Assembly (NCBI RefSeq): GCF_004010195.1
Contig: NC_057719.1
Location: 2,596,784-2,660,783 of the forward strand
Length of the DNA: 64,000 nt
Reading direction: 5' to 3'
From: Chiloscyllium plagiosum
Lineage: Eukaryota
Below the pieces are notes generated by a model. The model was not told the origin of the DNA. It ran no database searches and saw only the letters and a program-made list of their open reading frames with translations. The translations under genes were made by a program, and so were the position numbers. This document shows, one piece after another, positions 20,341 through 59,878 of this stretch. Every line of letters starts with the position of its first letter. Position 1 is the first letter of the stretch.

Positions 20341-20741
20341 AAGTTAAAAGTCACACAACACCAGGTAGTAGTCCAACAGGTTTATTTGAAAGCACTAGCT
20401 CAGGTCAAGTGCCACACCTTCAATCTGAGCTGAGATGGCACCTATTTTTAAAGATATCTTGAGAATGTAACTTTAAAAAAGTTCTGAGATTTATATATGA
20501 AAAAACTGAAACTAACATGATCATTCTAACAGATCAAAGACTCAAGCTAAGTTTGTTTAATATTACATTTTATGATACTGCAATCCTGTTGCTATAAATC
20601 CTGTGTCTTATGATTCTGCTCCACAACCACCTGATAAAGAGGCAGAACTCTGAAAGCTAGTGCCCCCAAATTAACCTGTTGGACTATAACCTGGTGTTGT
20701 GTCCATCCCAGTCCAACACTGGCACCTCTAAGTCATATTTT
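20341..20741 (+). mobile_element. Penelope-like terminal element (family E) with inverted ends
   Basis: 20354-20400 is the inverse of 20655-20701; hammerhead-like motif at 20628-20662; TAAACA duplicated at both sides. Confidence 0.65.
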
Positions 20742-21049
20742 TAAACAGGGGATTTGGAATCTCCTCAGTTTGGGAGACTGACTCTGAGCTGGCTGGCCAC
20801 AACCACTTTACTGTGCACCAGTAAATATAATGTCAGGATACTGGCTTCTGTGAAGTTATTTCTATATCATGCCAAAGTTTGACATGAATCAAAGAAGAAT
20901 TAGAATTAGATTTTATTGTCACATGTACTGAAGTACAGGAGTACAGTGGGAAATGAATTATGTCACCAGTTCTGGTGCCATCTTAGATGTAAAGGTACAA
21001 CAACTTAGAAACAAAGTAGAAAAATAAAGAAATAAAGCTTTTTTTTGGA

Positions 21050-22670
21050 TTCACTCTAACCTTCTCAGCCAAGGCTATCTCGTGTCCCCTTTTCACCCTC
21101 CTGATTTCCTTCTTCAGTCACCTCCTGTATCCCCTACATACCTCCAGGGATTCCCTTGATCCCAGCTGCTTGTACCAGAGCCATGTCTCCTCCTTTTTTC
21201 TGGTTAAAGCCTCAATATCTTTTGTCATCCAGGGTACCCTATTCCTGCCAACCTTGCCCCTCACCCTCAGAGGAACATACGGACTTTGAACTCCAGCTAT
21301 CTCACTTTTGAAGGCCTCTCACTTGCTGGAGGTCCCTTTACCTGCAAATTACTCCAATCAACCCCTGCAAGCTCCTGTCTAATTCCATCAAAATTCACTC
21401 TGCCCGAATTTAGAACATGAACCTGTAGACCAGTTTTGTCCTTCTCCATAACTATTTAAAAATTTTAAAAAAACTATGGTCACTGGTCCCAAAGTGCTCG
21501 CATGCTGTCACTTCCATCACCTGTCCTGCACTATTTCCCAAGATTAGACCATGTTTTGCCCTTTTCCAAATAGCACACTCCATATACTGCTTGAGGAAAC
21601 TTTCCTGAATACACATAACACATTCCACCCCATCTAAGCTCTTTGCGTTATGGCAATCCCAGTCTATGTTAGGAACATTAAAATCCCCTACTATGTCAAC
21701 TCTATTACTCCTGCAGGTCTCCCCAGTCTCCCTGCAATTCTGTTCCTCTTAGCAAGTTTTGAGAAGATTTGAAGCTCAGGTTGATGATATGGATGTAAAT
21801 TAGCTCACTGAGCTGGAAGGTTTGTTTCATCACCATGACTAGGTAACATCATCAGTGAGAGTCTTCAGTGGGGGCCTGTAGTACAACCCTAATAACGTCA
21901 TCGCCCCCTTCTTATTTCTTAGTTCCACCCACAAAGCCTCACTGGATGATCCTTCAGTTATTTCATCTCTGATTACTGCTGTGATACTCATCTCAATCAA
22001 AAATGCAACCCCCCCCCTCCCCTCCTTCCACCACCTCTGTCCCGGCTAAAGCACCTGTACCCTGGCACATTAAGCTGCCAGTCCTGTCCCGAGGTGAAGG
22101 GCTCCAGCCTGAAACATTGATGTTCCTGCTCCTTGAATGCTGCCTAACCTGCTGTGCTTTTTCAACAACACACTCTCAACTCTGTCCCTCCCTTAGCCAT
22201 GTTTCTGTAATGGCTATAATATCCCAGTGCAATTTAATCCAACAGGCATTCCTTGCTCCCTGTCCCGTTCCAATCTTACTGGTTTCTTTACTTTACTATT
22301 TCTGATTACTGTATCTCCTTCCAGCCTCAAACTTGCCTCCCTGCTGTTGAGGATCCCCATGAATCTAGTTTAAACCCTTCCTTGCAGCACTGGTAAACAT
22401 GGCTGCCAAGATATTGGTTTCCCCCTCAGTTCAGATGCAACCTGTCCCCAGAAAAATATCCCAATGATCTATAAATCTGAATCCCTGCCCCCTACACCAA
22501 TTCTTTAGCCATGCATTCATTTGCCATATTCTCCTGTTCTCACCCTCACTAGTTTGTGGGACTGGAAGTAATCCGGAGATTACCATCGACGAGGTCCTGC
22601 TTTTTAACTTTTGTTCCTAGCTCTCTATAATCACTCTGCAGGACCTCATCCCTATTCCTACCGATGTCAT
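21050..22670 (-). mobile_element. Old CR1-clade LINE, ORF1 end and endonuclease region, with small Penelope terminal inserts (21750-21870, 22090-22180)
   Basis: Minus-strand VGDFN-like motif near 21680 and DHSF-like motif near 21475; similarity to 57500-58500. Confidence 0.65.
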
Positions 22671-22976: not shown

Positions 22977-23449
22977 CAGTTTTGTCCATCTCCATAACTA
23001 TTTAAAAATTAATAGAACTATGGTCACTGGTCCCAAAGTGCTCCCATGCTGTCACCTCCATCACCTGTCCTGCCCTATTTCCCAAGATTAGACCATGTTT
23101 TGCCCCTTTTCCAAATAGCACACTCCATATACTGCTTGAAGAAACTTTCCTGAATACACATAACACATTCCACCCCATCTAAACTCTTTGCGTTATGGCA
23201 ATCCCAGTCTATGTTAGGAACATTAAAATCCCCTCCTATGACAATCCTATTACTCCTGCAGGTCTCCCCAGTCTTCCTGCAATCGTGTTCCTCTTAGCAA
23301 GTTTTGAGAAGATTTGAAGCTCAGGTTGATGTGGATGTAAGTTAGCTCGCTGAACTGGAATGTTTGTTTTCAGACGTTTCATCACCATGACTAGATAACA
23401 TCATCAGTGAGAGTCTCCAGTGGGGGCCTATAGTACAAGCCCAATAACG
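22977..23449 (+). repeat. About 470-bp direct copy of 21431-21898
   Basis: High identity along the whole length, including the embedded Penelope fragment. Confidence 0.9.
23370..23410 (-). ncRNA. Minimal type I hammerhead ribozyme motif (family D terminus)
   Basis: Minus strand UCA-CUGAUGA-U-GUUAUC-uagucau-GGUGAU-GAAA-CGUC-UGA: intact core, pairing stems I and II, GUC triplet. Confidence 0.7.
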
Positions 23450-31764: not shown

Positions 31765-33720
31765 TCTACACTGCTGAAGCCAGGTGCCAACTTGCAGACA
31801 CCTCCTCCTACTGCCCCCTTGATCACGACATCACCTCCCATCACTAGACCATCCACAACCTCATCACCTCTGGGGATCTCCAACCTCATTGTCCATGAAC
31901 ACAGCACCACCCAGTTCTACCTCCTTCCTAAGATTCACAAACCTGACTGCCCCGGTTGACCCATTGTCTCAGCTTGCACCTGTCCCACTGAACCCATCTC
32001 TTCAAACCTTGAAACTGTCCTGTCCCGCTTAGTCCAGGAACTCCCCACCTACATTCATGACACCACCTACACTCTTCAGTTCCTCCAAGGTTTCCGTTTC
32101 CCTAGCCCCCAATGCCTCATCTTCACCATGGACATCCAGTCCCTATATACATGATTCCACCACAACGAAGGTCTCCAAATCCTCCGTTTCTTCCTCTCAT
32201 GCTGTCCCAACCAGTACCCTTCCGACACCCTCATCTGCCTGGCTGAACTGGTCCTCAACCTCAACAAATTCTCCTTCGAATTCTCCTACTTCCTCGAAAT
32301 GAAAGGAGTAGCCATGGGCACCCATAGGAGACCCAGCTATGCCTGCCAGTTTGTCGGTTACGTGGAACAATCCATCTTCTGCAGTTACACCCACCACCTG
32401 TTCCTCCGCCACATCGATGACTATATCAGCGCTGCCTCATGCTCCCACTAGGAGGTTGAACAGTTCATCAACTTTACCAATACCTTCCACCCCAACCTCA
32501 AATTCACCAGGACCATCTCAGCAACCTCCCTCCCCTTCCTTGACCTCTCCGTCACCATCTCTGGCAACCGACTAATCACAGACATATACTACAAGCCCAC
32601 CAACTCCCACAGCTACCTGGATTACACCTCCTCTGACCCTACCTTCTGTAAAAGCGCCATCTCTCATTCCCAAATCCTCCGCCTCCATCACATCTGTTCC
32701 CAAGATGATCAATCCCACCTCAGAAAATTCCAGATATCCTCTTTCTTCCACGATCACAACTTCCCTTCCCACATGGTTGACAATGCCCTCCAGCACATCT
32801 CCAAAACTTCACGCACCATTGCCCTTGAACCCCAGCCCTCCCAAAGCAACAAGAATAGAACTCCCTCGGTCCTCACATTCCACCCCACTAACCTCCGCAT
32901 TCATCACATTATCCTCCGCCACCTCCAAACGGATCCCACCACCAAAGATATTTCCCTCCCTACCCCATTAGTGTTCCTGACAGTCCATTCCCTCCGCGAC
33001 TCCCTCATCAAGTCCATGCTCCCACCAGCCCATACCTCCTGGCAACTTTCCCTACCACCGCAAGAAGTGCAAAGCCTGTGCCCAGATCCCTCCCCTCACC
33101 TTTGTCCAAGGCCCCAAATTCACCTGTACTTCTACTAATGTCATCTACTGCATCTGTTCCACCCGGTTTGGTTTCCTCTACATTGGGGAGATAGGATGCC
33201 TTCTTGTGGATTGTTTCAGAGAACATCTCTTGGAACCCCCACCCACCAACCCCACCGCCCCGTGGCTGAACACTTCAACTCCCCCTCCCACTCCGTCAAG
33301 GACATGCAGGTCCTGAGCCTCCTCCATTGCCAAACTCCTATCACCTGACACCTGGAGGAGGAACACCTCATCTCCTGCTTTGGGACCCCGCAACCACATG
33401 AGATAAATATTGATTTCAACAGCTTCCTCATTTCTCCTCCCCCCCCCCCCAACTTTATCCCAAGTCTCCAACTCAGCATGGTCTTCCAGACCCATCCATC
33501 ATTCCCCCCCTCTGCCCTATTACTTTCTCTCTCACCTTCATCCACCATTCTGCTTTCCCAGCTACCTTCCCCCAACCCCACCCCACCCTCCCATTTATCT
33601 CTCAACCTCCCAGCCCACAAACCTCATTCCTGATTAAGGGCTTATACCTGAAATGTCGATTCTCCTGCTCCTTGGATGCTGCCTGACCTGCTGTGCTTTT
33701 CCAGCAACACACCCTCAATT
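31765..33720 (+). mobile_element. Penelope-like element (RT and GIY-YIG), degraded
   Basis: FYLLPKIHKPDCPG, LIFTMDIQSLY, GVAMGT, FLRHIDD, NVIYCIC...LYIGE and VAEHFNSPSHS; family A terminus. Confidence 0.9.
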
Positions 33721-34249
33721 CTATGAATTCCCCCTGGATTTCTGTTACCTGCAATTTGTTTCTGAATCTAGGTCATTGATGTGAATTAGTTTCACTGCGG
33801 ATGAAGCTCCTGGAATTTATGCCAGGATGGGGTTTGTTGTGCCAGGATGTTTGCACAATGTTGAGTTTCAAAATTAACATTTCGGACTCTTGTGGTGTCA
33901 TGACAGTCTCCCTACCTCTGGGTCAGAAGGTCTGAGTTCAACTTGCACTTACCCTGTGAATTTACCATAGCATATCTAAAACATTTAAAAACCAAAAGTG
34001 GTGGTTCGAATTCTGAGCCTTGTGGAATGTTACTGAGTACTTCCCACCTCTCCACTTTGACTAGAACTCCTCTATCAAGTAGCAGAGGAGGCTTTATTCT
34101 GCCCAAGACTTGACAGTAGGCTCAGCTAACAGCCTTGAAATTCTTTGGTCGTACACACCTGAGTATGGCTTGAAAAAGACACTTTATATCAAAGATTTTT
34201 ATCTTGCACTCCTCAAGATAATTTGCAAGAAATGCCAGAATAAAAGGGA

Positions 34250-34592
34250 AACAACACTACCATTATAGGGCAAGCGAAACAAAGAACAGCCAGGGAATTC
34301 CTAGAAGCATGGCACTCATCCACAAACTCCATCAACAAACACATAGACCTGGACCCAATATACCGGCCACTACAGCGGACAGCTGAAACTGACAACCGGA
34401 AGCGGCAGGGACAGGCCACTATAAACACCGGAGGAAACACCACTTCACAGGAGAAGCGCTTCACAGGAGGCTCCCAAGCACTGAGGATGTCACCTAGACA
34501 GAGGATGAAACGTTTACAACAAAAGCTTCCAGCTCGGCGAACAGAACCACAGCAACGAGCACCCGAGCTACAAATCTTCTCACAAACTTTGA
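34250..34592 (+). mobile_element. Penelope-like 3' fragment (family C)
   Basis: NTTIIGQAKQRTAREFLEAWHSSTNSINKHIDLDPIY (GIY-YIG C-terminal type) followed by a hammerhead-like motif at 34478-34517. Confidence 0.8.
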
Positions 34593-34679
34593 ACAACTTT
34601 TCTTATATCATCTGAGAAAAGAATGATGATTGATTGGCATGTGGTCTTGTTGCTAGAGGCTTTGCCATGGCAAATGTAC

Positions 34680-36395: not shown

Positions 36396-36799
36396 TGACA
36401 GTTAACTGCCAAGGTTTGTTTAAATTTTAAATCAGGTTGGTTGACTCTGCTTGATCAAGATCATTTTTGAACTGAAAAGTGCTCAATTTATCTCAAATTA
36501 TTTGGGAGGGATAAGGTATCTTGAAAGTGTAAGCAACAGCTAAAGCTAGCTGTTTCATGTTGCTATTGTCTAGTATCTCACAGAACACTGCCTTGAAGCC
36601 AAAGTGATGGCCTGCCCATTATACGGATATGTAATGTGGTATATGAATTTCAGCGATGGTGTGAAATTTTAAAATTCATTCATGGGATATGTGTGCCATT
36701 GGCTGGGCCAGTGAGTTTTGATAAGATTTATGGACCAGCATTTATTGCTGATTGCTAGTCATTGGAGAGAAGGTGGTGGTGGCCTGCTGTCTAAGATGT

Positions 36800-37890
36800 T
36801 TGATGCACATCCAGAGGACTGTCAGGTTGCATCAAACAGTTGAACTCTTTGGTTGCTGGCAACAAACAAGATATTGACTGTACCATCACCCGCCAATGCT
36901 GGCAAAACGCAAAACACAAAACACAAAACACAGTGTCCAAATGTCATACGCAATTCTGTGATTGGACAGCATTTGCTGAATCACTCTGAGTTTGTTAGGC
37001 TGACAAACAATTGTCAGGTTTGCAGAGTGGCATTCCCATTTACAGATGTGGGTACTGCTGACTACACCATTGCCATGGGTGTACAGTCAGATGTAGGTAG
37101 AAGTGGGTACTGCAGATGCTGGAGATTAGAGTCAAGGTTAGAATGGAGCTGGAAAAGCACAGCAGATCAGGCAGCATCCGAGGAGCAGGATGAAGGGCTG
37201 ATGAAGGGCTCCTGCCCGACTCTCCTGCTCCTTGGATGCTGCCCGATCTGCCGTGTTTTTCCAGCACCACTCTCATCTTGACTATAGTCATATGTAGACC
37301 AGGCCAAGTATAAAAAGCCAATTTCCATCCTTAAAGGACATGAGTGAATCAGTCACATTTTTCGCAACAATCATTGGAGTCTTAATTCCAGATTTTTATT
37401 CAATTTAAATACACTATCTGCCAGGACAAGATTCAAACCTGGATCCACTGAACAGTACCTGAGTCTCTAGATGAATAGTTTAGTATACTACGATGATGCC
37501 ATTGACACCCTTTGTAGATACTGGAATATTTGCAGGGCAGAAAGAACATGTATAAACATGATGCCTGTCTCATTTCAACAAAACAGGGGACAGTCATTCA
37601 CAAGCTCACTTCTCAAGGCAATTCCAGTGACAAATTAAAAGTCAACTTGTCTGGTTTAACATTTAAACAAAGCTTGGCTGTTAACTGTCGGATATCATTT
37701 AACACTTGCATTTCCCATTGTAACACCTCTACCTAACAAAGTCCATTTGCCAACCAATCAGCAGTCTCTTCTCAGACAGTATTTGTAACAAGAAATGCTT
37801 TTCCTTTACGTTGGTATTCTTGTGATTTGTCCTGATGTGTGCAAGATGAAAAGTTTTAATAAAATGTATAACTTTTCAGCAATATTCAAC
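36800..37890 (+). mobile_element. Ancient Penelope-like 3' remnants (family F) mixed with a SINE and a fold-back insertion
   Basis: SVIGQHLLNH near 36955; decayed hammerhead-like motif at 37827-37862; fold-back insert 37097-37285 with a 12-bp TSD. Confidence 0.5.
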
Positions 37891-38261
37891 CCTTGATGTT
37901 TAATCAATGAAACAGGACTTAATCAAAGTTTAGCTGGGAAGAAAATTCCTCCAACAAGAAAGATAGGTTGTATCCTTACTAACTCCAAGTTGCCAGGTCT
38001 CACAAAGATCCTTTAGCCTGTTTAGAACTTCCACTTCATTGATATTAAACTGACTGATTTTGCCCGGTTTAATCTTGCCCAGGGATGGCATGTTGCTCAT
38101 GACATCTTTGTGAATACTTGGCAGAAGCAGACAATTATAATGATCACTAACGTGTGCTAATATGCTGTGTCTTGCTAAGGTTTACATTGATTATTACTTT
38201 TACCTTCTTCTTGACTGCCCTATTGCCGAAAAATATATGAGTACGCTTTTTACAACAAAAA

Positions 38262-41707: not shown

Positions 41708-42945
41708 GGGTCTGCTTTCTTTCAAAGTATCTGAAAATGCTCTTACACAGAACAGAATGGTTTTCCCACCACTAAATCATTGTGACATTTTCTCAACTAC
41801 TGACCACCACCTGTGTAGCCAATTAAATATTTACAAGCAAAGCCCACTATGGGCATTACAAACCATTAAACATAAGAGGAGATAGGAAGAGTGGGCAACA
41901 ATCAAATCAAAATGGGGTTAGAGGGCAAAGGGAGTCTGCTTTCTTTCTCTAACACTCATAAGTACTATCATGCACAACCGAGCACCTTTCCCACTACCAA
42001 ATCTCCATGACTTTTTAAAACTACTAACACCAACACCAGTAATAGGGGTCTGCTTTACATATTTCCTAATCAACCGGATCAATGAAGTTATTACACTCCT
42101 CTGGAGGAGGCCCAGGGCTCAGAGACAGGGACACTATCGTTACACCAAATGACCCTATAGGGGTCTTTGTTTTTATATGCCCAGAGGTGTTGCCACATGC
42201 AATGGAGTAACTTTCCCACCACCAAAATTACCATTTTTAAAAATGTTTTCTTTGCTTTAACTACTGACCAACCAACAGTAGTCACCTGTGTAGGCAATTC
42301 AGCATTAACACACAGAGTCCACTATGGGCCATTTAAATCATTAAAAGTGCAGGGGGTGTGGAAGCATGGGAGGTGACTAAATCAAGATGGAGTTGGAGGG
42401 GGAAACAAAGCAATGTTTCCCCTGCGGTGCACATCTTTTCTCTCAAGGTGGCGAGCGTGTTAATGGACACGCATACTCCTTCTCCATGGACACAAACGTA
42501 ACCCCAAAGAGAGGCAGGGAGTTTGCAAAGATGACCCTGCCACAACCTGCTTTCTAGAGGGGTCTGCCTTATTTTTATTTGAAACTACTAACCACCACCA
42601 GTAACTAATGTGTAGTTAATTAAATATTTACAAGCAAAAGATTAGATTAGATTACATTACATTACAGTGTGGAAACAGGCCCTTTGATCTAATCTAATCT
42701 AATCTAATCTAATCTAATCTAATCTAATCTAATCTAATCTAATCTAATCTAATCTAATCTAATCTAAAACCCATTACAGACAATGCAGTGTCAAAGGAGG
42801 TTGAGATATGTATCATTTTAAAAGCTTAATCTACTTTGCCTAATCAACCTGTTCAGAGATGTTATTACAGTATGGTCTCTGAAGAAGATGGGACTTGAAC
42901 CCAGGTTTCTCAGTCCAGGGGTAGGGGCCACTGTGCTGATGAGTT
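41708..42945 (-). mobile_element. Cluster of Tx1-like 3' fragments and tRNA-type SINEs
   Basis: 42375-42550 aligns by eye with Tx1 fragment 8505-8690; 3' UTR motif AACTACT(G/A)AC recurs four times; SINEs at 42054-42156 and 42835-42945. Confidence 0.65.
42687..42767 (+). repeat. (AATCT)n microsatellite, about 16 units (SINE-tail derived)
   Basis: Perfect pentamer run. Confidence 0.95.
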
Positions 42946-44047
42946 CTAATAAAAAGGATCGTTGCCTGTTACCCAGAGAACTCATACCCAGTCAGCTCCA
43001 CATAGAGATTAGGGATTCCCCATGGGCCTAGTAGGGGTTATCACAAGGCCCAACTTTATGTATGTTTCCATTTAATATCCCCTTTGTTCTATTATGTACA
43101 AATATCTACCTCATTCCAATTTGGATCCCTGCAGAATTGGTCTATTTAGCTTTATCCCTTAGATCTGAACAATTACTCTGCTGTTTTCCATAATTAATGC
43201 TGTGCCTTAATTTTAACTACTTAGCATTTCATCCCTCCTACATTCAATTCCTATTTACCAAATTCCCGTAGTCACTTCTGAGCAAGCTAATCCATGTATA
43301 AGATTCATTTAACTTTCACCCAGCTCTGTGCTTGCCACCAAACTGTACCTTTCAAAACGTATCACTCATTTAATTATGCTGAGCCTTCTCAAAATTGCAC
43401 ATGTAGCTTGTGAACTTTGGCACTTTTGAACTTTAGATAGTACTGAATTGAGTTCTGTGGTTACCCGTTTGTGTCTGCTTCCAGTTTCTGGTTTATTCAT
43501 GAATATACATCATGATCCTACAGTGTTGTGACTACTTCTTCTTTCCTGTGATGTACTATATCTTATCTGTAACATCTCAGATTTTACATCAGGTCAAATT
43601 AAGTCACCCAATAAAACAAATTCCAAATTCTCAGCAGTTGTTTCGCCAAGTTGGCAGGACGGATGAGCGCTTCAATGCCTGAATATGCTGAGGCATTACA
43701 TGTTGATGCTTCTTGTTGCTTTGCACCATAATTAACAGAGAATGGTGCACCCCAAACTACATAACACCAGTTATTTCTCAATATAGTCCTTTGTGGACTA
43801 TAGCCAATTGCTTTACTGTAATTCTTCACATTTTCACAACAAACCATTTCCTATTCTTCAGGAGCCTCCTCAGGATGCAGACAGACATAGAGTACAAAAT
43901 TATCATTCATTTCCCAACCATCACTCAGCTTTCCTACAGCTGGGGAACAGAAAATTTGAAGACCAGAATCTCAAACTCGAATTGAGGTCATAGCTCACCA
44001 GAGAGCAATGACCCTCTTATAAGCTGCTGAGGCTTGGATAACCTTCA

Positions 44048-44563
44048 GAATCAAAGAATCCCTACAGTATGGAAGCAGGCCATTTGGTCCATTGAGTCCA
44101 TGCCAACCCTCCAAATGGCATCCCACCCAGGCCCACCCCGACCTGTAACCCTGCGTTTCCCAGAGCTAATCCACCCAACTTGCACATCTCTGGACACTAT
44201 GGTCAATTTAGCATAGCCAATCCACCTAAACTGCACATCTTTGGACTGTGGGAGGAAACTGGAGCACCCAGAGGAAAATAAACACACACACACAATGTGC
44301 GAACTCCACACAGTTGTCTGAGCCTGCAATTGAACCCAGGTCATTGGTGCTGTGCGACAGCAGTGCTAACCACTAAGCCACCGTGTTGACCATTGGATTA
44401 GGTGGATTGGCTGTGCTAAATTGGCCCATAGTGTCCAGAGATGTGCAGATTAGGTGGATTAGCCATGGCAAATAGGGGGGTATGGGGACAGGGTGGATGC
44501 TCTTTGGAGGGTTGGTGTAAACTTGATGAATTGAATGGCCTCTCTCCGCACTGTAGGGATTCC
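44048..44563. mobile_element. Two HE1-type SINEs in opposite orientation (minus 44048-44386, plus 3' half 44394-44563)
   Basis: 44395-44470 is an inverted match to 44165-44230. Confidence 0.8.
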
Positions 44564-44699
44564 TTGAAGATCCTTTAAATCTGGTGGTCCAAGAGAAACA
44601 TTCTCTCCCACGCTAGCTTGACCAGTGTTGATGTATATAATCATTCGGAATCAGTTAAGCAGGGCCTTGGCTGCTTCTTTTCTTTGGCTTTCCTCATGT

Positions 44700-45040
44700 G
44701 TGAGATATGGATGTCACTGGTCAGGCCAGCATCTATGACCACCCCTATCTGTCTTAGAACTTACAAGCTCTGAGGGCAGTTAAGAGCTAACCTCATTGCT
44801 ACGGGTCTGGAGTCACATGTAGGCCAGGCCATGTAAGTACAGGCGATTTCGTTCCCCAAAGAACGTTAGTGAATCAGATGAATATTCATCTCAATCAACA
44901 TTAGTTCCATGGTGACCATCAGACTAATTTTTATTGTAGATTTTTACCATCTGCCAAGATGGGATTCAGCCTATGTCCTGAGAGTATTACCCTGAAGCTC
45001 TGGATTAATACTACAACGACATTACCACAATGCCAACTGC
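44700..45040 (-). mobile_element. tRNA-derived SINE sharing its 3' tail with the older LINE family
   Basis: Homologous to 53410-53735 and 37286-37510; GGCCAGCAT...GAGGGCAGTTAAGAG...GGGTCTGGAGTCACATGTAGGCCAG. Confidence 0.65.
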
Positions 45041-45044
45041 ATTG

Positions 45045-45387
45045 TCGAAACCCTAGGACCACTTCATTTATTTACTTGATATTACACCCCCAGAAAGTGC
45101 TCTATCTCGAATATGGTCAGAGCTTGAGACTGCCAGGAGGGCATGGGAATGCCTAAGGAATAGCCTCAAAGCAATATTGACAAAATCAAACTTAACCACT
45201 GATTCATGGGAGCCCTGGCTTGTAACTGAACAAAACACTGAAGATTTATTCAAGAAGGCAGCAACCTTCTGGAGAGAGTGCACAAACTTTCAACCTCTCA
45301 ATCACCAGAGTTTTTTGAGGACCATCTCCTCACTTTGCGACAGAGTCTCCACATATGAGCCATCTCAGAACTCATCCAACTAAAGTC
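45045..45387 (+). mobile_element. RTE-clade LINE 3' fragment, old
   Basis: PQKVLYLE...RLPGG, NSLKAILTKSNLTTDSWE and terminal SLCDRV...SHLRTH zinc-finger remnant. Confidence 0.6.
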
Positions 45388-48300
45388 GAAACAAAAACAG
45401 AAATTACTGGAAAAACTCAGGAGGCCTGGCAGCATCTGTGGAGAGAAAGCAGAGTTAACGTTTTGGGTCCAGTGACCCTTCTTCAGAACGGATTGTAGCC
45501 AAGGAAAGTGTTGGTATTGTGCAGAAGATATGGCGGGATGGTGGGGGGTGCGCAGAATAAATGATAGGTGGAGTTGGAGTTCACAGAGAGAGTATAGCAG
45601 CTGTGCAGAGTAATGGGGAAAGGTCAGCCCAAGAGAATGAGCTAATAACGAGCATTAATAGCTGACAATAGCTTGTGAGTGGTAGCAGCTCATTTGATGA
45701 CAAGACCCGGTGTGTGGGGATTGGGGCAAGGATTGAGAGAAGGTGCTCAGGCCCTAAATTTGTTCAATTTGATATCGAGTCCTGAAGGCTGCAGATCTCC
45801 AGAAAAATGAAACACTGCTCTTTCAGCTTGCGCTGAGTTCGCTGGAGCACTGCAGCAAGTCTGATGGACATATGTTGGGCAGGGAACACCGTGGTCTGTT
45901 GAAGTGGCTGACCACAGGAAGCTCAGGGTCATTTCTGTGGAAAACGGTTGTCCAGTCTGCACTTTGCCTCCCCATGTAGAGGAAACAACATTGTTAGCGG
46001 TGAATATAGGAGACTAGATCAAGTGAAGTACAAGTTGTGGGGGTGCACAGAGGTGTGAGGACTGGACAAAGGGGTCCTGGAGGGAATGGTCCTTGTGGAG
46101 GGGAATATGTATCTGGTGGTGGCATTCCATTGGTGGTGACATACACTACTCCTCAGATAGCTATTCCTACTGCACACTTAGGGCCATGCAGTGCTATATG
46201 CACACTCGCAACTTCTCTCTCCATCAGCACTGCCTCACACTGGCTCAGAGATGCTCTGCCCCAAGTTCCACTGTATCCTTCAGCTCATTCAACTTTCTAA
46301 CAAGAAACATTTTCTTTTCCTTTCAGCCTTAGGGAACCCAAGCTGCAACAACTCAGAGACACCAACATCTCTCTAAAAACCTTTCTCTCTTCCCCTTCCC
46401 TCTGACTCTATCTCCTCTCCCAACCTCACCTCCTGTCCTGCAATTACTATTGCTTTTGACGTTCCTGTCTGATGCTAAACATTCTGTAGTTAGCAAAGGT
46501 CTCAGTTTTATCCCTCTGTGCAGGTTCAATGTTCCTTAAAAGTGGAATAACAGGTAGATGTGATAGTGAAGAAGGCATTTGGCACATTTACTCTCATTGG
46601 TTAGTGTACTGAATGTAGGAGTTAGGATGCCACATTGTGACTGTACTAGACATTGATCATACCATTTATGAAACACTGTGTGCAATTCTGGTCTCCCTGC
46701 TAGAGGAACAAGACTATTTAACTTGAAAGGGTTCAGAGAAGGTTTACAAGGATCATAGCATCATAGAATTCCTACAGTGTGGAAACAGGCCATTTGGACC
46801 AACAAGTAACACCGGCCCTCTGAACAGTAACCCACCCAGACCCAATTACTCCACATTTGCCCCTAACTAATGCACCTAACCTACACATCCATGAACACTA
46901 TGGGCAATTTAGCTTGGCCAATCCACCTGATCTACGCATCTTTGGACTGTGGGAGTAAACTGGAGCACCCGGAGGAAACCCACGCAGACATGGGGAGAAT
47001 GTGCAAACTCCACCCACTCAGTCACCCGAGGGTGGAATTGAACCCAGGTCCCTGGTGCTGTGAGACAGCAGTGCTAACCACTGAGCCACCGTTGCCAGGG
47101 TTGAAGGGTTTGAATAGGCTGGGGCTACTTTCCCTGGAGGGTTGGAGAATGAGGAGTAACTTTATAGAGTTTATAAAATCATAAGAGGCATGGGTAGGGT
47201 GAACAGTCAACGGTAGGGGAATCCAAAACTAGAGGACATAGATTTATGGTTTAGAGAGGGAAAAGATTTAAAAGGGACTTAAAGGACAATGTTTTCACAC
47301 AGAGGGTGGTGTGTGTATGGAATGAGCTGCCAGAGGAAGTGGTGGAGGCTGGTACACTTCCAACATTTAAAAGCTATCTGGTTGGGTATATGAATAGGAA
47401 GGGTTTAAGAGTGATATGGGCCAAATGCTGGCAAATGGGACTAGATTAATTTAGGATATCTGGTCAGCATGAACAAGTTAGACAAAGCTGTCCATTGCTA
47501 TGACTCTAGAACTCATCCTTTCCTACCTCGACTGAATTTTTTTTCTCTTCTCGTCCAGTCCCTTCCACTTACATCCACAACTGTCTGACACATAATGTCA
47601 GTTTTGGAACGTCCAGTTTATGGGCTCCAGCTACCTCCCCTTTCCCATGGAGGTACAACCCCCCCTTCCACACCCATCCCCCACCAGGATGGTCTCAGGG
47701 CTCTCCATTTCTTCCTGGAGTAAAGGCCTGAACAGTCCCCACCCCCCAGCACCCTCCACCACCCGGCCGACCCCACCCTCACCCTCAACAACTTCTCTTT
47801 TCATTCCTCTCACTCCTTTCAGCTCAGAGAGGTGGCCATGGGGACCCACATGGGCCCTAGTTATACCTGTCTCTTTGTGGGGGACGTGGAACATCCTTGT
47901 TCCAATCCTATTCTAGACCCAACCCACAGTTTTTTCCAGGATATCAATGACATCATCAGTGGTGCTTCCCTCTCTCTCGTCTGGAATTGGAAAGGTTTAT
48001 TGATTTCTGTTCCAACTTTCATTGCACTCTGACCTTCACCTGGTCCACTTCTGACTCCTCCCTTCCTTTCCTCAACATTCCTATTTCAATTTCTAGAGAG
48101 AGGCTTGTCATTAATGTCCACTACAAACTCAGTAACTCCCTGTTACCATGATGATACATTTTCATACCCACCTTCCTGTAAAGACTCTATTTCATTCTCC
48201 ATTTTTCTGCCTCTGTCGTATCTGTTCTGATGATTCTTATGTTGATTGGGGGGCATCTGAAATGTCTATCTTCTTCCTCAACTGAGGACTCCCCACCACC

Positions 48301-49520
48301 GTTATTGATAGGGCCGTCAGCTGTGTCCAACCCACCTCCCACACTTCAACCCTCACCCTTTTCTTCCCTCCCACAACAACAGGGTCACTTCTGTCCTCAC
48401 CTACCATCCCACCAACATCTACATATAAAGGATAATTAGTCGCCAATTCCACTATCTCCACAGGATGCCATCACTAAACACATATTCCCCTCTCCTCCCA
48501 TGTCAGCCTTCCGCAGGGACTGTTCCCATCGCCACATCTTGGTCCACTCCTCCTTCACTCCCAACACCTCCACAGCACTTCCCTTGCAATCACAGAAGGT
48601 GTAACACCTGCTTGTTTACTTTCTCCCTCCTCAGTATCCAAAGGCCTAGACACACCTTCCAGGCGAAGCTGCACTTCACTCAATCTAGTCTCCTGTATTC
48701 TTTGCTGACAATATGGTATTCTCTTCATGGGGTGACCTCTTTGCAGAACATCACCATTCTATGTGCAAAAAGGACCCTGACCTTACTGAGACCTGCCAGT
48801 TCAACACCCCATCCTGTTCCCTGGCCAACATCTCTGTCTCAGGCTTGCTGCAGTGTTCCAGTGAAGCTCAGTGCAAGCTGGAAGAGAGCACCTCATTTAT
48901 TGCTTGGGAATCCTGCAGCCTTCTGGATTCAATAACGAGTTCAACAATTTTAGGAGAAAATGAGGACTGCAGGTGCTGGAGATCAGAGTCGAAGAATGTG
49001 GTGCTGGAAAAAGCACAGCCGGTCAGGCACCATCCGAGGAGCAGGAGAATCGACATTTCGGGCATAAGCCTTTCAACAGGAATTGCTTGAAATGTCAACT
49101 CTCCTGCTCCTCCGATGCTGCCTGACTGGCTGTGCTTTACCAGCACCACACTCTTCCACAATTTTAGGGCCTGAACACCTTATTCCATGTCCTATCCCCA
49201 ACCCCCACACACCATTGACAACTACCACAAGCAATTTATTGCCAACCACTAACCATTTACAGCCATTTATTCTCCAAGGCCAATCTTTACTCATTCTTCT
49301 GTGTGCCCAACTGTGTTTTTCTCTGTCTGGGCTCCATCTCCACCTACTGCTTACTCCTCCCTTCCACTCATCTTTAACATATACCGTACCAACGTTTTCC
49401 TACCTCCCATTCCTACAATCAGTTCTGAAGAAGGGTCACTGGATGCTGCTGGCCTTGCTGCGTTTTTCCAGTAATTTCCATTTTTGTTTCTGATTTGCAG
49501 CATCTGCAGTTCTTTGTTTT
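45388..49520 (+). mobile_element. Degraded near-complete Penelope-like element (family B) with an inverted 5' terminal copy
   Basis: 45388-46140 is an inverted copy of the 3' region; plus-strand SKGLSFIP, AMGTHMGPSYTCLF, QDIND, FPCNHRRCNTC and KLEE; terminus at 49420-49520; interrupted by CR1 with HE1 and by a fold-back insert. Confidence 0.75.
46517..47508 (+). mobile_element. CR1-clade LINE 3' fragment containing a minus-strand HE1 SINE (46760-47093)
   Basis: CVQFWSP and FTQRVVCVWNELP; SINE splits ACAAGGAT and GTTGCCAGG. Confidence 0.85.
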
Positions 49521-50869: not shown

Positions 50870-52495
50870 CTTTTGCAGGTAAAGGGGGTAATGCACCAAA
50901 CGCTTGTGATTTCAAATAAGCCTGTTGGATTATAACCAGATGTTGTTTGATTTCTGAACCTGTCCACCCCAGTCCAACACCGGCACCTCTGCATCAGAAA
51001 TGATCAAAACATTGTGAGAGTCTGGAACTCAATGAGTGAAAGAATGGTTGAGTCTGAAACTTTTGAGACATTTAAGCAATATTTATGTATTTGCTTGTCC
51101 TACCATCATCCTCCAGGCCAATGGGCAAACAGCTGGAAGATAGGATTAGTACAGTCTGATCCTTGTTGACGAGCTTGGACACATTGGCAGAATAGCTTCC
51201 TTCTGTGCTGTAAATGTCTATGAGTCCTCATATGTTGTCAGAAGTTCATACAGTTCACACTTATAGTTTACTAGAAGTAGTCTGTAAAATGTCCACTAAA
51301 TTCCATGTGGCCTCCACTTATAAATCAAACTGAAATGATTCTTTTTGTGCATTGAAATCATCATTATCACAGAGTGAGCTATTCAGCCAACCATAAATGA
51401 GTCAACTGAATTTTATGACAAGCAAAACAAAAATGCTTGTTTCTGTAAATAATTCTTTACCATAAAGTGTGTAATGGAACTCATCAGTGGTACAGACATG
51501 GCAGCAAGTAATGGTGCTGCTGCATAAATGTGAAGAGTTCAAGGTGCTTTTTAGGGTCCTCATGGTATACTGCTAGGGTCCCAACCTCTGCACTAGGAGA
51601 TCTAGGTTCAAGTCTCATCAGCTCCTGAAATATATGATAATATTTCTGAACAGGGAGATTAGAAAATATAAATGTGAAGAATTAACTGCAGGAAGGGCAT
51701 GTAGCTGTAAAATCACCTGTTAATTTCAAATGATGATTAAAAGAATTAAAATGGCAGCCCGGTCAGGACTCACTCTGCAAATGATGCACAAGGTCTCTAC
51801 CTGAACCCTACGTGGAACAACCAAGGGTTTCTATTAAGGGAGCAAGGATGGCTAAAGAGGGAAAACCAAAGGAAAAGTGAAAAGATGATCAAGCTTAAAA
51901 AGGCACACCTTTATGGACATACGAAATAGGTCAATTGGATCTTTGAATCTTCTCCACCATTTTGGAAGATCATGGTTAATCTGATATATGTAGTGATCCA
52001 GCCTCGAATGCCCACTAGGGAAGACAATTCCAAACACTAATGACCCTCAGGGAAGAAAGTTCTTCTAATCTTTATCTTAAATGGGAGACCCGTATTTTAA
52101 AACTCTGCTTCCCAGTTTCGAGACTCCTGCACAAGAGTCTCTCAGGGCAGAATGATCCCAGCATATGAATGATAAGGGAAAAGCAATAAAATTGAGAAAA
52201 TACATTGAATATGAAAAAAAATTATTGATGTGAAGATTATTTACTTTGAAGGAAAAAAACCTCGATTTTCTCCTCAAGGATTCAACGGCTAGACGATAGT
52301 CTTGCTAGTAAATAGCAAGGGCCCTATTTGCATTATTACCTTTTTTACATGCAGGATGCTAGTGTCCTTTAGGGAAGATAATCTGCTGTTGATTGCTGAT
52401 CTGGCCTGTACATGACTCCAGATCCATGGCAATCTGGTTCATTTATAACCAATCATAGCATATAGGAGCAGAAGTTGGCCATTTAGCCCATCAAG

Positions 52496-53177
52496 GAGAA
52501 AGTGAGGACTGCAGATGCTGGAGATCAGAGCTGAAAATGTGTTGCTGGAAAAGCGCAGCATCCACCTGCACCTCCACACACATCATCTATTGCATCTGCT
52601 GCACCCAATGTGGCCTCCTCTATATTGGGGAGACAGGCCGCCTACTTGCGGAACGTTTCAGAGAACACCTCTGGGACACCCGGACCAACCAACCCAACCA
52701 CCCCGTGACTCAACACTTCAACTCCCCCTCCCACTCCACCAAGGACATGCAGGTCCTTGGACTCCTTCATTGCCAGACCATGGCAACACGACAGTTGGAG
52801 GAAGAGCGCCTCATCTTCTGCCTGGGAACCCTCCAACCACAAGGGATGAACTCAGATTTCTCCAGTTTCCTCATTTCCCCTTCCCCCACCTTGTCTCAGT
52901 CAAATCCCTCGAACTCAGCACCACCTTCCTAACCTGCAATCTTCTTCCTGACCTCTCCGCCCCCACCCTCACTCCGACCTATCACCCTCACCTTGACCTC
53001 CCTCCACCTATTGCAATTCCAACGCCCCTCCCCCAAGTCCCTCCTCCCTACCTTTTATCTTAGCCTGCTGGACACACTTTCCTCATTCCTGAAGAAGGGT
53101 TTATGCCCGAAACGTCGATTCTCCTGTTCCTTGGATGCTGCCTGACCGGCTGCGCTTTTCCAGCAACACATTTTCAG
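52496..53177 (+). mobile_element. Young 5'-truncated Penelope (family A): GIY-YIG domain and terminus, with inverted 5' piece
   Basis: HIIYCICCTQCGLLYIGETGRLLAERFREH...LEEERLI; perfect 16-bp TSD CATTTAGCCCATCAAG at 52480-52495 and 53178-53193. Confidence 0.92.
53085..53120 (+). ncRNA. Minimal hammerhead ribozyme motif (family A terminus)
   Basis: CUGAAGA-A-GGGU-uuau-GCCC-GAAA-CGUC; core intact, stem I weak. Confidence 0.65.
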
Positions 53178-54704
53178 CATTTAGCCCATCAAGTCAGCTT
53201 TGCCATTCAATGAGATCAGAGCTGATTTAACAAATCTTCAACTCCATACTCCTGCCTTTTCTTTCTAATCGCGATTCCCTTACTGCTTAAAAATCTATCT
53301 CAGCCATGAATATACCTAATGGCCTAGCCTCAATTTCCTTCTGCATTAAAGAATTCCACAGTTTCATTACTCTCTGAGAGAGGAATAACTCCTCATCTCT
53401 GTTGCAAATGGGATGAAGGTGTCACTGGCTAGGCCAGCATTTATTGCCCATTCCAAATTGCCCAGAGGGCAGTTAAGAGTCAACCACATTGCTGTGGGTC
53501 TGGAGTTACTTTTAGGCCAGAGTGGGTATGGATGGCAGTTTTCTTCCCTCAAGGACATTAGTGAACCAAGGTTAATCCAACAATTGACAGTGGATTCATA
53601 ATCATCATTCAACTCTTAATTCCAGACTTTTACTTGTATTCAGTAAAAATGGGATTTGTACCTGGGTTCCCAGAACATTACCTGGACCTCTGGATTAACA
53701 GTCAAATGATAATACCACAAGGCCATTGCTTCCCCACTGGAGAGGTTGAGATTATGCCCTCTGGTCCTCGATTCTCCCATTAGGGAGAATCTGCATTTAC
53801 CCTGTCAAAGCGATTAAGAATCTTGTCTGTTTCAGTAAGATCACCTCTCATTTTTCTAAACCTCAAGGAGCACAGGCTCAATCTACTCAACCTCTCCTCA
53901 TAATCCAGTACCTCTGTACCTGATTATCACCTTCTCTGGACTCCCTCCAATACCAGTATATCTTTCACAGTCAAGGGGCTAAAACTGTTCACTGCTCCAC
54001 CTGTGGTCTGACTTGTGCCTTGTATAGATTTAGCAAAGCCTCCTTACTTCTATATTCTATTTCATTGAAATAAAGGCCAACTTGCCATTTTTTCTTCCCT
54101 ATTACTCACTGAACTTGGATGATAGCTTCTGGTCATTTAATGTACAAGGTCTCCTAAATCCTTCTGATCTGCAGCTTACTGCAGTCCTTCTCATTTAAAT
54201 ACTACTCAGCTCCTCTATTCTTCCTGCCAAAGTACATAACCTCACATTTTCCCCACATTATTGTGGTTCTGTTTGCCGAGCTGGGAATTTGTGTTGCAGA
54301 TGTTTCGTCCCCTGTCTAGGTGACATCCTCAGTGCTTGGGAGCCTCCTGTGAAGCGCTTCTGTGATCTTTCCTCCGGCATTTATAGTGGTTTGAATCTGC
54401 TGCTTCCGGTTGTCAGTTCCAGCCTGTCCGTTGCAGTGGTCGGTATATTGGGTCCAGGTCGATGTGCTTATTGATTGAATCTGTGGATGAGTGCCATGCC
54501 TCTAGGAATTCCCTGGCTGTTCTCTGTTTGGCTTGTCCTATAATAGTAGTGTTGTCCCAGTCGAATTCATGTTGCTTGTCATCTGCATGTGTGGCTACTA
54601 AGCATAGCTGGTCGTGTCGTTTCGTGGCCACTTCAACGGACAGCTGGAACTGACAACTGCAAGCGGCAGATTCAAACCACTACAAATACCGGAGGAAAGA
54701 TCAC

Positions 54705-55099: not shown

Positions 55100-55185
55100 T
55101 GGAACTGACAACTGGAAGTGGCAGATTCAAACCACTACAAATGCCGGAGGAAAGATCACAGAAGCGCTTCACAAGAGGCTCCCAA

Positions 55186-55225
55186 GCACTGAGGATGTCA
55201 CCTAGACAGGGGACGAAATGTCTGC
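55186..55225 (+). ncRNA. Minimal hammerhead ribozyme motif (family C terminus)
   Basis: GCA-CUGAGGA-U-GUCACC-uagaca-GGGGAC-GAAA-UGUC-UGC; antisense twin at 54296-54335. Confidence 0.65.
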
Positions 55226-56680: not shown

Positions 56681-57590
56681 ATGGTGGTTATGGCAGTTGA
56701 ATGTTCATCCTGCAGAATGTGGGAGGTAAGGGTCACCACTAGAGTCCCTGCTGACTACATCTGCGGGAAGTGCACCCAACTCCAGCTCCTCAAAAACTGG
56801 GTTGGGGAACTGGAGCTGGAGCTGGATGAACTTCGGATCATTTGGGACGTGGAAGGGGTTATTGAGAGGAGTTTCAGGGAGGTAGTCACACCTCAGGTAC
56901 AAGAAAAAGACAGATGGGTTACTGTTAGGGGATGGAAAGGGAACTGGCAGTTAGTGGAGGGAAGCCCTGTGGTCATTCCTCTCAACAAGTACACCATTTG
57001 GATACTGTTAGGGGGAGTGGCGACTTACCAGGGGTAAGCAATAGGGTACATGTCACTGGCACAAAGTGTGTCCTTGTTGCTCAGAAGAGAAAGGGGAGAT
57101 GAATAGAGCATTAGTTATTGGGAACTCCATTGTTAGGGGGACTGATAGGAGGTTCTGTGGGAACAAGACAGACTCATGGTTGGTGTGTTGCCTCCCAGGT
57201 GCCAGGGTTCGTGATGTCTTGGATTGTGTTTTTGGGATCCTTTAGGGGGAGGGGGAGCAGCCCCAAGTCTGGTCCACATAGGCAGAAAAAGGGATGGGGA
57301 TTTAAGGCAGAAATTCAGGGAGCTAGGTTGGAGCTTAGAGCTAGAAGAAACAGAGTTGTTATCCCTGGTTTGTTGCCCGTGCTAGTGAGGTGAGGAATAG
57401 GGAGAGAGAGGAGTTGAACATGTGGCTGCAGGGATGGTGCAGGAGGGAGGGTTATGGATTCCTGGATAATTGGGGCTCATTCTGGGGAAGGTGGGACTTC
57501 TACAAACAGGATGGTCCACACCTGAACCAGAGGGGTACCAATATCCTGGAGGGGAAATTTGCTAATGCTCTTCGGGTGGGTTTAAACTAA
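56681..57590 (+). pseudogene. CR1 ORF1: zinc finger, leucine zipper and SGNH-esterase domain, frameshifted
   Basis: CSSC...CGKC, LELELDEL, VIGNSIVRG (GDS-type block), CLPGARV and QDGPHLN (DxxH-type block). Confidence 0.85.
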
Positions 57591-59596
57591 TTCAGCAGGG
57601 GGAAGGGAACGCAAATTGTAGTTCGAGTATACGGGAGGATGAGAGTAGTGAAGTTAGAACTGGGATTCCAAGGTTGCAAGAAGGCACTGGCAAGCAGGAG
57701 GTTGGTTTGAAGTGTGTCTACTTCAACACCAGGAGCATTGGAATAAGGTGGGTGAATTTGCAGGATGGGTTGGTTCCTGGGACTTCGATGTTGTGGCCAT
57801 TTCGGAGACATGGATAGAGCAGGGACAGGAATGGGTGTTGCAGGTTTCGGCATTGATATGTTTCAGTAAGAACAGGGAAGGTGTGGCATTGTTAGTCAAC
57901 GACATTCTTATGATGGCAGAAAGGACATTTGAGGACTGGTCTACTGAGGTAGACTGGACTGAGCTTAGAAACAGGAAAGGAGGTCACCCTGTTGGGAGAT
58001 TTCTATCGGCCTCCGAATAGTCCCTGAGATGTAGAGGAAAGGATAGCAAAGATAATTCTGGATAGGAGCAAGAGTAACAGGGTAGTTGATATGGGGGCAT
58101 TTAACTTTCCAACTATTGTCTGGAAATACTATAGTTTGAGAACTTTAGATTGGTCAGTTTTTGTCCAATGTGTGCAGGAGGGTTTCCTGACAGAACATAT
58201 AGACAAGCCAACAAGGGGCAGGGCCACATTGGATTTGATACTGGGTAATGATCCCGTCCAGGTGTTAGATTTGGAGGTAGGTGAGCACTTTGGTAATAGT
58301 GACCACAATTCAGTTATGTTTACTTTAGTAATGGAAGGGGATAGGTATACACCAGAGGGCAAAAGCTACAGCTGGGGGCAAGACAATTATGATGTGATTA
58401 GGCAAGATTTAGGATGAACAGAGTGGGGAAGGAAACTGCAGGGGATGGGCACAATTGAAATATGGTGCTTATTCAAGAAACAGCTACTGTGTGTCCTTGA
58501 TAATTATGCACCTGTCAGGCAGGGAGGAAGTGGATGAGTGAGGGAGCCGTGGTTTACGAAAGAAGTTGAATTGCTTGTCAAGAGTAGGAAGAAGGCTTCT
58601 GTTAAGATGAGATATGAAGGCACAGTTAAGGTGCTTGAGAGTTACAAGTTAGCCAGAAAAGACCTAAAGAGACAACTAAAAAGAGCCAGGAGGGACATGA
58701 GAAGTCATTGGCAGATAGGATCGAGGAAAACCCTAAAGCTTTTGATAGGTGCATCACGAATAAAAGAATAACTAGTGAAAGATTAGGGTCAATCAAGGAT
58801 AGTAGTGGGAAGTTGTAAGTTGAGTCCAAGGAGATGGGAAAGCACTAAATGAATATTTTTCATCAGTATTTTCATTGGAAAAAGACAATGTGGTTGAGAA
58901 GAATACTGACTTACAGGCTACTAGACTAGATGGGATTGAGGCTCACAAGGAGGTGTTAGATATTCTGGAAAGTGTAAAAAATGGATAAGTCCCCTGGGCT
59001 GGATGGGATTTATCCAAGGATTCTTTGGGCAGCCAGGGAGCAGATTGCAGAGCCTTTGGCTTTGATCTTTATGTCATCAATTTCTACAGGAATAGTGGTA
59101 CAAGAGCAGGGGAGAGCAAATGTTGCTCCCTTGTTCAAGAAGAGGAGTAGAGACAACCCTGAAAATTATACACCTGTAAGCCTTACTTTGTTTGTGGTTG
59201 AAGCATTGGAAAAGGTTATAAGAGATAGGATTTAATATCATCTAGAAAGGAACAAGTTGATTAGGGATAGACAACATGGTTTTGTGAAGGGTAGGGTGTG
59301 CCTCACAAACCTTATTGAGTTCTTTGAGAAGGTGTCTAAACAGGTGGATGAGGGTAAAGTGGTTGATGTGGTGTATATGGATTTCAGTAAGGTTTTTGAT
59401 AAGGTTCCTCATGGTCATCTATTGCACAAAATATGAAAGCTTGGGATTGAGGATGAGTTAGCAGTTTTAATCAGAAATTGGCTAACTGAAAGAAGATGGT
59501 GGTTGATGGGAAATGTTCATCCTGGAGTTGTTACTAATGGTGTACTGCAAGGATCTGTTTTGGGGCCACTGCTGTTTGCCATTTTCACAAATGATG

Positions 59597-59878
59597 GGTT
59601 AGAGTGGTGCTGGAAAAGCACAGCAGTTCAGGCAGCATCCGAGGAGCAGTAAAATCGATGTTTCGGGCAAAAGCCCTTCATCAGGAATACAGGCAGAGTG
59701 CCTGAAGGGTGGAGTGATAAATGAGAGGAGGGTGGGGATGGGGAGAAAGTAGCATAGAGTACAATAGGTGAATGGGGGAGGGGATGAAGGTGATAGGTCA
59801 GGGAGGAGGGTGGAGTGGATAGGTGGAAAAGGAGATAGGCAGGTAGGACAAGTCATGGGGACAGTGCTGAGCTGAGGT
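59597..59878 (-). mobile_element. Penelope family A terminal fragment with an intact hammerhead core (59657-59684)
   Basis: Minus strand CTGATGA-A-GGGC-TTTT-GCCC-GAAA-CATC; host sequence duplicated at 59579-59594 and 59887-59902. Confidence 0.8.

What the first reader, a model, noticed from the sequence alone, without database searches (positions are those of the whole stretch)
20628..59688. At least six Penelope terminal-repeat families each carry a minimal hammerhead ribozyme with covarying stems
Seen: the CUGAnGA...GAAA...UH core recurs at the same position in otherwise different termini. Family A: 53085-53120 (+) and 59657-59684 (-), stem II GGGC/GCCC. B: 45454-45489 (-), stem I GUU/AAC, stem II GGGUC/GACCC, G12 mutated. 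C: 55186-55225 (+), 54296-54335 (-) and 34478-34517 (+), stem I GCA/UGC. D: 23370-23410 (-), stem I UCA/UGA. E: 20628-20662 (+), stem I CAC/GUG, G8 mutated. F: 37827-37862 (+), decayed. Stem III is reduced to a palindrome (ACGU in A, B and D; AGCU in E; CpG-decayed variants in two C copies), and families A-E have one extra nucleotide after A9. Established: Penelope-like elements carry minimal type I hammerheads thought to work as dimers. Inference: this genome holds very many such motifs, and copies inside a host intron could cleave pre-mRNA.
Basis: partly seen in the sequence, partly recalled or inferred. Interest (0 to 1): 0.72.

Follow-up and report, generated by a model that had tools for sequence, protein, structure and literature searches.

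The report
Penelope hammerheads that cut in vivo
The small self-cutting RNA motifs are real but belong to a known kind carried by Penelope-type jumping genes, and nearly all copies here are broken; elsewhere in this genome the U6 splicing RNA is joined to these elements at the exact bond the ribozyme is predicted to cut, which likely records real cutting in the germ line.

Summary
All nine motifs are at the stated places. They are minimal type I hammerheads in the end repeats of Penelope-like elements. The extra base after A9, the palindromic stem III and the family-level covariation were all described in 2014. A and B share a tail, as do C and D, so the six families form four clades. Only 1 of the 9 copies is intact. 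A 1.15-Mb sample gives roughly a million termini and about 100,000 intact motifs genome-wide (37 hits; 0 in five shuffles). Compensatory pairs separate subfamilies. Across dead copies the core decays like the tail. No host exon was found, so intron cleavage is unsupported. Two results go further, and this scan noted both before on other DNA of this genome. First, most short A copies and about 40% of B and E copies begin within 10 bases of the core, likely at the transcript start, so uncut RNA is the usual template. Second, U6 snRNA ends join the tails at the predicted cut: A at 7 loci, D and E once each, C once in register. This is indirect in vivo evidence of cleavage.

The parts
52459..52932 (+). 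Remnant of the family A endonuclease ORF (GIY-YIG)
   Evidence: Pfam GIY-YIG E=6.6e-5; the A1 terminus follows on the same strand
53085..53120 (+). Family A hammerhead (A1), the only intact copy in the window; C3 at 53089, predicted cut between 53116 and 53117
   Evidence: U6 chimeras elsewhere join at the same bond
59657..59688 (-). Family A hammerhead (A2), stem III CpG-decayed, at the 3' end of a copy of 300 nt or more
45454..45489 (-). Family B hammerhead, G12 changed; same clade as A
55186..55225 (+). Family C hammerhead (C1); A9 + extra U + G10.1 spell an AUG; palindrome decayed
54296..54335 (-). Family C hammerhead (C2), inverted partner of C1 across an assembly gap
34478..34517 (+). 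Family C hammerhead (C3), C11.1 and a stem I pair lost, downstream of endonuclease C-terminal codons
23302..23422 (-). Family D stub starting 15 nt above the core; hammerhead 23370-23410, C11.1 lost
21757..21870 (-).
20628..20662 (+). Family E hammerhead, G8 changed; a short inverted E arm lies at 20338-20400 (-)
37827..37862 (+). Family F hammerhead-like motif, decayed; family form has 5-bp stem I, 2-bp stem II, 6-nt palindrome and no extra base; second copy at 34140-34251 (-)
3286..3450 (.). Head-to-head pair of family A stubs, both arms starting 3 nt above the core
37114..37278 (.). Head-to-head family A pair inside a 12-bp near-duplication of the target
48980..49152 (.). Head-to-head family A pair inside a 15-bp near-duplication, inserted in a family B copy
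60970..61338 (.). Two inverted family A arms around about 215 nt of LINE-derived DNA, inside a 12-bp near-duplication
32452..33722 (+). Long decayed family A copy: RT/thumb and endonuclease remnants with the linker cysteines, ending in a decayed hammerhead and tail

Best explanation
These are minimal type I hammerhead motifs in the end repeats of several endonuclease-bearing Penelope-like retrotransposons; the parent elements' ribozymes likely do cut in the germ line, while most genomic copies are broken stubs likely copied from uncut RNA. Shown: motifs, decay, subfamily covariation, linkage to RT/GIY-YIG remnants, the pile of 5' ends at the core, and U6 joined at the predicted cut. Inferred: the repeat holds a promoter that starts the RNA about 4-20 nt above the core. 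The element's protein binds the tail, starts reverse transcription inside the RNA, and often copies only this front end, once or twice head to head. A minority of RNAs fold into the active form, with a second hammerhead or the element's protein helping, and cut after UH. The 5'-OH product can be ligated to U6 by RtcB and then retrotransposed. Cutting would remove the cap, and in C and some D the start codon, so its likeliest role is to process or silence the element's own RNA rather than host RNA.
For: Descriptor 37 hits against 0 in five shuffles. Double changes that keep Watson-Crick pairs: A stem II 7 copies, B stem II 16, B stem I 4 and 4, D stem I 6, E stem I 6, E stem II 9, each above the shuffled expectation; these are about seven lineage events, not independent copies. 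GIY-YIG and RT remnants upstream of A-E. 5' ends at -10..+9 of C3: A 111 of 198, 5.9 per 100 nt at risk against 0.5-0.7 elsewhere; B 41 of 95; E 33 of 85. TATA-like boxes at -35 to -53 in B, C, D, E and F. U6: 4 of 40 fetched copies join an A tail at the first base after the cut, where 4 of 271 ordinary A copies begin. Pattern searches: 8 of 15 A/B hits at that bond (7 loci), 1 exact D and 1 in-register C among 4 hits, 1 of 1 exact E. RtcB joins U6 cyclic phosphate to 5'-OH RNA (PMC6789731). Internal RT start and protein-assisted cleavage were shown for the anole element (PMC11167929).
Against: No transcript start was measured. A has only a degenerate TATA (2-3 mismatches). C shows no pile of 5' ends (2 of 29 at -10..+9), and the F ends seen lie at -23 or further up, in a set biased to longer copies. 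The cap-G test was inconclusive: G before the end in 3 of 33 non-inverted A copies against 9.4 expected. For 3 A loci and the D and E hits only about 12 letters of U6 were seen. No B junction was found and F was not tested. Three hits lead into A sequence upstream of the cut and were not checked for U6. Most A copies have only a 2-bp stem I plus a U-U mismatch. Predicted lowest-energy folds are mostly not the hammerhead. D. virilis Penelope has a TATA-less internal promoter (PMC2377424).
Confidence: 0.75

Rival explanations
1. The motifs are ancestral hammerheads kept as a protein-binding or promoter structure, and the U6 junctions come from a protein nuclease or a template switch at that spot.
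For: Catalytic mutants do not affect insertion in vitro and no RNA-seq reads end at the cut in the anole. In vitro activity of minimal hammerheads is low. In A and B the stem I 5' strand also resembles an initiator, and in C/D the motif overlaps codons, which could explain some conservation.
Against: The junction falls after UH in families whose sequences around the bond differ. Ordinary copies do not favour that base (4 of 271). There is no microhomology between the U6 U-tract and the bases before the cut.
Confidence: 0.12
2. The pile of 5' ends is not a transcript start but a stop or fold-back of reverse transcription at the hammerhead, or self-priming on an antisense template.
For: Some junctions use stem I or stem II complementarity as microhomology, and minor piles lie at +9 and +20. 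Self-priming was proposed for head-to-head Penelope structures (PMC3846280). The cap signal is unclear.
Against: The main pile lies at the 5' edge, after the enzyme has already unwound the motif. It is present in non-inverted copies (A 46 of 93) and sits about 30 nt below the TATA-like boxes in B, D and E.
Confidence: 0.3
3. One reading: dispersed copies in host introns cut pre-mRNA to a degree that matters.
For: About 100,000 intact motifs are extrapolated, cleavage seems to occur in vivo, and stubs keep the tail that the protein would bind.
Against: No host exon was found in the window. No splice joint was seen in one RNA run with 520 laid reads, nearly all partial repeat matches, which is a weak test. 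Only 1 of 9 listed copies is intact. Same-strand neighbours at least 90% alike within 4.5 kb number 5 of 37 pairs. Head-to-head pairs would fold into long hairpins instead.
Confidence: 0.1

Closest known systems
Minimal hammerheads (min-HHR) in pLTRs of metazoan Penelope-like elements (Cervera and De la Pena 2014, PMC4209133; parts 1-2 of 4 read)
   Same: Type I core, short stem I, extra base between 9 and 10.1, G10.1-C11.1, palindromic 15.2-16.2, several covarying families per genome, mostly solo truncated copies, opposite-strand pairs
   Different: Copy number: about 100,000 intact and a million total here (extrapolated), against 4,000-9,000 in coelacanth and Xenopus. That paper had no in vivo evidence; U6 junctions give indirect evidence here. 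F lacks the extra base and has a 2-bp stem II.
Poseidon of Anolis carolinensis, PAc (Frangieh et al. 2024, PMC11167929; parts 1-2 of 4 read)
   Same: C/D: an AUG at the start of stem II with the cut 28 nt further on in C (26 in PAc); several 3' end positions in the tail; uncut RNA as main template
   Different: No reads ended at the PAc cut site. The pile of genomic 5' ends at the core and U6 chimeras are not reported in the parts read.
Neptune/Nematis-type elements with the cysteine linker between RT and endonuclease (Craig et al. 2021, PMC8557442; passages read)
   Same: A, B and E carry C-x4-C-x2-C before the GIY-YIG region; partial tandems, inverted 5' copies and tail
   Different: No RT tree was built, so Neptune versus Nematis is not resolved
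U6/LINE-1 chimeras made by RtcB (Moldovan et al. 2019, PMC6789731; passages read)
   Same: U6 ending in five U joined directly to a retroelement RNA with a 5'-OH
   Different: L1 partners are variably truncated by an unknown nuclease; here the partner starts at one fixed bond, the ribozyme site

Membership tests
PLE minimal type I hammerhead | Core CUGAnGA, GAAA and UH in type I order | tested here: met
   Family majorities A-F keep it; 1 of 9 listed copies passes the strict descriptor
PLE minimal type I hammerhead | Extra base after A9 and G10.1-C11.1 pair | tested here: met
   A-E yes; F has G10.1-C11.1 but no extra base
PLE minimal type I hammerhead | Palindromic, minimal stem III | tested here: met
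   ACGU in A-D, AGCU in E, 6-nt palindrome in F majorities
PLE minimal type I hammerhead | Compensatory changes in stems I and II | tested here: met
   Seen in A, B, D and E on sequence-only alignments; none within C or F
PLE minimal type I hammerhead | Self-cleavage after UH, as dimer or with protein | not testable with these tools
   Indirect only: U6 junctions at the bond in A, D, E and in register in C
Endonuclease-bearing Penelope-like element (A-E) | End repeat downstream of an RT plus C-terminal GIY-YIG ORF | tested here: met
   GIY-YIG at 52459-52932; RVT_1 upstream of D, below the family cut-off; like remnants read by eye upstream of B, C and E
Endonuclease-bearing Penelope-like element (F) | End repeat linked to an RT/GIY-YIG ORF | tested here: inconclusive
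   No coding remnant recognised upstream of 42 F copies
Endonuclease-bearing Penelope-like element | Full-length ORF between two direct repeats | not tested
   Long open frames exist (up to 1659 aa) but were not read
Neptune clade (A, B, E) | Cysteine linker before the endonuclease | tested here: met
   C-x4-C-x2-C read; absent from C and D
Neptune or Poseidon clade | Position in the RT tree | not tested
   No reference RT sequences on hand
Non-LTR retrozyme | Tandem non-coding units each with a hammerhead | tested here: not met
   Copies are solo or head to head; 5 of 37 same-strand neighbour pairs are 90% alike or more

The most novel reading that the evidence does not exclude
In vertebrate Penelope-like elements the hammerhead is the first thing transcribed, in A and B built partly from the initiator itself. 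It works in the germ line as a switch that removes the cap (and in Poseidon types the AUG) from the element's own mRNA. The genome records both states: hundreds of thousands of stubs copied from uncut leaders, and U6 chimeras ligated to cut ones.
Probability: 0.4. Interest if true: 0.68.

Novelty: new member of a known kind. Interest (0 to 1): 0.5.

Why it matters
The function of Penelope hammerheads is an open question. The 2014 paper had no in vivo evidence, the 2021 paper calls the function unclear, and the 2024 paper saw no RNA ends at the cut. U6 joined at the predicted bond in several families gives a DNA record of cleavage and maps the site without an experiment. The 5' end pile predicts where transcription starts. 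Both can be tested cheaply. The motifs in this window add little on their own.

Tried and rejected
Rfam scan: no hammerhead family among the matches. Host gene search: 70 open frames from less repetitive stretches gave no Pfam hit above a cut-off; no RNA holder was listed for 37300-45000; reads laid on 36500-46900 fell on repeats, one RNA run laid nothing, and no RNA joint appeared among the rows shown. This does not show that the window is intergenic. Core against tail conservation across copies: no excess after base matching except in B (0.904 against 0.858). Cap-G signature: inconclusive. A -29/-30 peak of 5' ends was an artefact of inverted partners and vanished with subfamily references. 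Energy folding did not favour the hammerhead in most monomers or in any of 6 dimers. A possible distal extension of stem I in C/D was seen by eye but not tested, and both strands overlap codons. No Infernal model was built. Lunse et al. (PMC5785218) is not held and is known to me only through a review. Supplement file 1 of PMC4209133 could not be searched and may list cartilaginous-fish examples.
Full report
Observation. All nine sites are present at the stated coordinates. Only A1 (C3 at 53089) passes a strict hammerhead descriptor. The others carry core changes (B, E, F), a lost C11.1 (C3, D) or a CpG-decayed palindrome (A2, C1, C2). A and B share their tail and C and D share theirs, so there are four clades. 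The window lies on a 95.8-Mb contig of a 3.56-Gb assembly. That the host is a cartilaginous fish is my recall of its repeat families and the wording of earlier notes, not a test.

Abundance and chance. I took 120 stretches of 10 kb at round coordinates of large contigs (1,148,280 bases without N). They hold 393 termini: A 186, B 98, C 11, D 27, E 63, F 8. Of these 262 span the core, 109 keep the core letters and 37 pass the strict descriptor, against 0 in each of five shuffles. Extrapolated, that is about 1.2 million termini and 110,000 intact motifs. The figure is rough because the sample is not strictly random and the genome size includes gaps.

What carries them. A1 lies 157 nt below a GIY-YIG remnant. 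Long copies of A, B and E run back into coding remnants with a C-x4-C-x2-C linker before the endonuclease, the mark of Neptune/Nematis types in PMC8557442 (passages). C and D lack it and D links to RT. In C the extra base after A9 is the U of an AUG that opens a frame through the tail, as in the anole Poseidon element. That this AUG is the true start is inferred by analogy. In the window's D subfamily a one-base longer loop shifts that frame to a second AUG. No ORF was linked to F.

Covariation. On sequence-only alignments, double changes that keep a Watson-Crick pair exceed shuffled expectation at seven positions: A stem II (7 copies, 1.0 expected), B stem II (16, 9.4), B stem I (4, 0.8 and 4, 1.2), D stem I (6, 0.9), E stem I (6, 1.3) and E stem II (9, 2.7). 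Each is probably one event in a parent lineage, and all are transitions. C and F show none. Most A copies have a weak stem I of two pairs, a U-U mismatch and an A-U pair; a young subfamily has four pairs. Across copies the core is no better kept than a base-matched tail, except in B. That is expected for dead insertions and does not test the ribozyme.

Where copies begin. Using subfamily references and leaving out the hits that the searches were centred on, 111 of 198 A copies at 90% identity or more begin within -10..+9 of C3. That is 5.9 ends per 100 nt at risk, against 0.72 downstream and 0.49-0.57 upstream; non-inverted copies alone give 46 of 93. B gives 41 of 95 and E 33 of 85. D has 9 of 40 at -15..+6, two of them one duplication, and none between -53 and -15. 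C has no pile. In about 82 inverted A pairs the longer arm ends at -13..+9 in 64. TATA-like boxes lie at -35 (B), -40 (E), -46 (F), -50 (D) and -53 (C); A has only a degenerate one. In A and B the stem I 5' strand resembles a recalled initiator consensus. I read this as a transcript start just above the core, with the leader copied by internal initiation as shown for the anole element. Few copies begin at the cut (A 9 of 198 within 2 nt), so uncut RNA is the usual template. A test for a cap-derived G was inconclusive. I reached this reading before looking at earlier notes, which hold the same idea.

Evidence of cutting. Earlier notes reported U6 joined at the cut, and I tested this. An Rfam search listed 48 top U6 matches, a lower bound. 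I fetched the 3' junction of 40, leaving out six in one cluster that I took for true genes and two overlapping entries. Four join an A tail at the first base after the predicted cut and one joins a C-type tail in the same register with different first letters; the other 35 gave no match to these families. Only 4 of 271 ordinary A copies start at that base. Pattern searches over 62 offsets gave 15 hits for the A/B tail. Eight are at the cut, at 7 loci with 7 different tail variants; two of the eight are the arms of one head-to-head insertion. The other 7 are scattered and unverified. The C/D search gave 4 hits: one exact D junction, the in-register C junction and two unrelated. The E search gave one hit, exact. 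No B junction appeared and F was not searched. For three A loci and the D and E hits only the last 12 letters of U6 were seen. U6 ends in a cyclic phosphate and RtcB joins it to 5'-OH RNA (PMC6789731, passages). A 5'-OH is what hammerhead cleavage leaves (established knowledge). The simplest account is cleavage, ligation and retrotransposition in the germ line.

Intron idea. I found no host exon or splice joint, though the RNA test was weak. Intact same-strand partners are rare, and the tested relatives need a dimer or the element's protein. A preprint reports related retrozymes under-represented in Xenopus introns (10.64898/2026.07.22.740005; part 1 of 5 and passages), which leaves some room for selection against genic copies. 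I put meaningful host cleavage at about 0.1.

What is known. PMC4209133 describes the motif type, the extra base, the palindrome, covarying families and opposite-strand pairs. Inverted repeats, tails and TATA/initiator-like motifs are in PMC3846280 (passages), and a promoter in the repeat is in PMC2377424 (passages). Six library searches listed no paper whose title or abstract start reports U6-Penelope chimeras or shark Penelope hammerheads. The library lacks most subscription journals, Lunse et al. could not be read, and one supplement of the 2014 paper was not searchable.

Verdict. The finding is real and of a known kind, and most copies are dead. Interest comes from two genome-wide by-products that I tested: the U6-marked cut sites and the leader-length stubs. 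Interest 0.5; new member of a known kind.

Noticed in passing
G000:C31:9507336-9507643: One head-to-head insertion whose two arms both carry U6 joined at the cut, as if one chimeric RNA had been copied twice
   Followed up: partly
L337, L338, L342, L347, L350-L357, L360, L368, L369: Many U6 copies are joined at or near the 5' head of the common tRNA-derived SINE; the SINE label is recalled
   Followed up: no
L333: U6 joined to a tRNA-like sequence at its 5' end
   Followed up: no
window 60970-61338: About 215 nt of LINE-derived DNA between two inverted family A arms inside a 12-bp near-duplication; possible capture of other DNA
   Followed up: partly
window 34140-34593: A C copy and an F copy abut head to head at 34251
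   Followed up: no
window 21757-21926 and 23302-23437: Two D stubs share the same 5' end and both flanks, a local duplication about 1.55 kb apart
   Followed up: partly
window 23370-23422 and family C/D majorities: Possible distal extension of stem I beyond an internal loop, starting near the inferred transcript start; not tested for covariation
   Followed up: no
G000:C8:49517892, C5:90093633, C15:75185861: Open frames of 1659, 1170 and 1144 aa around family A-type RT matches; candidates for intact elements
   Followed up: no
window 1-64000: About 71% of the window matches other sampled loci, mostly decayed LINE and SINE pieces; three assembly gaps
   Followed up: no
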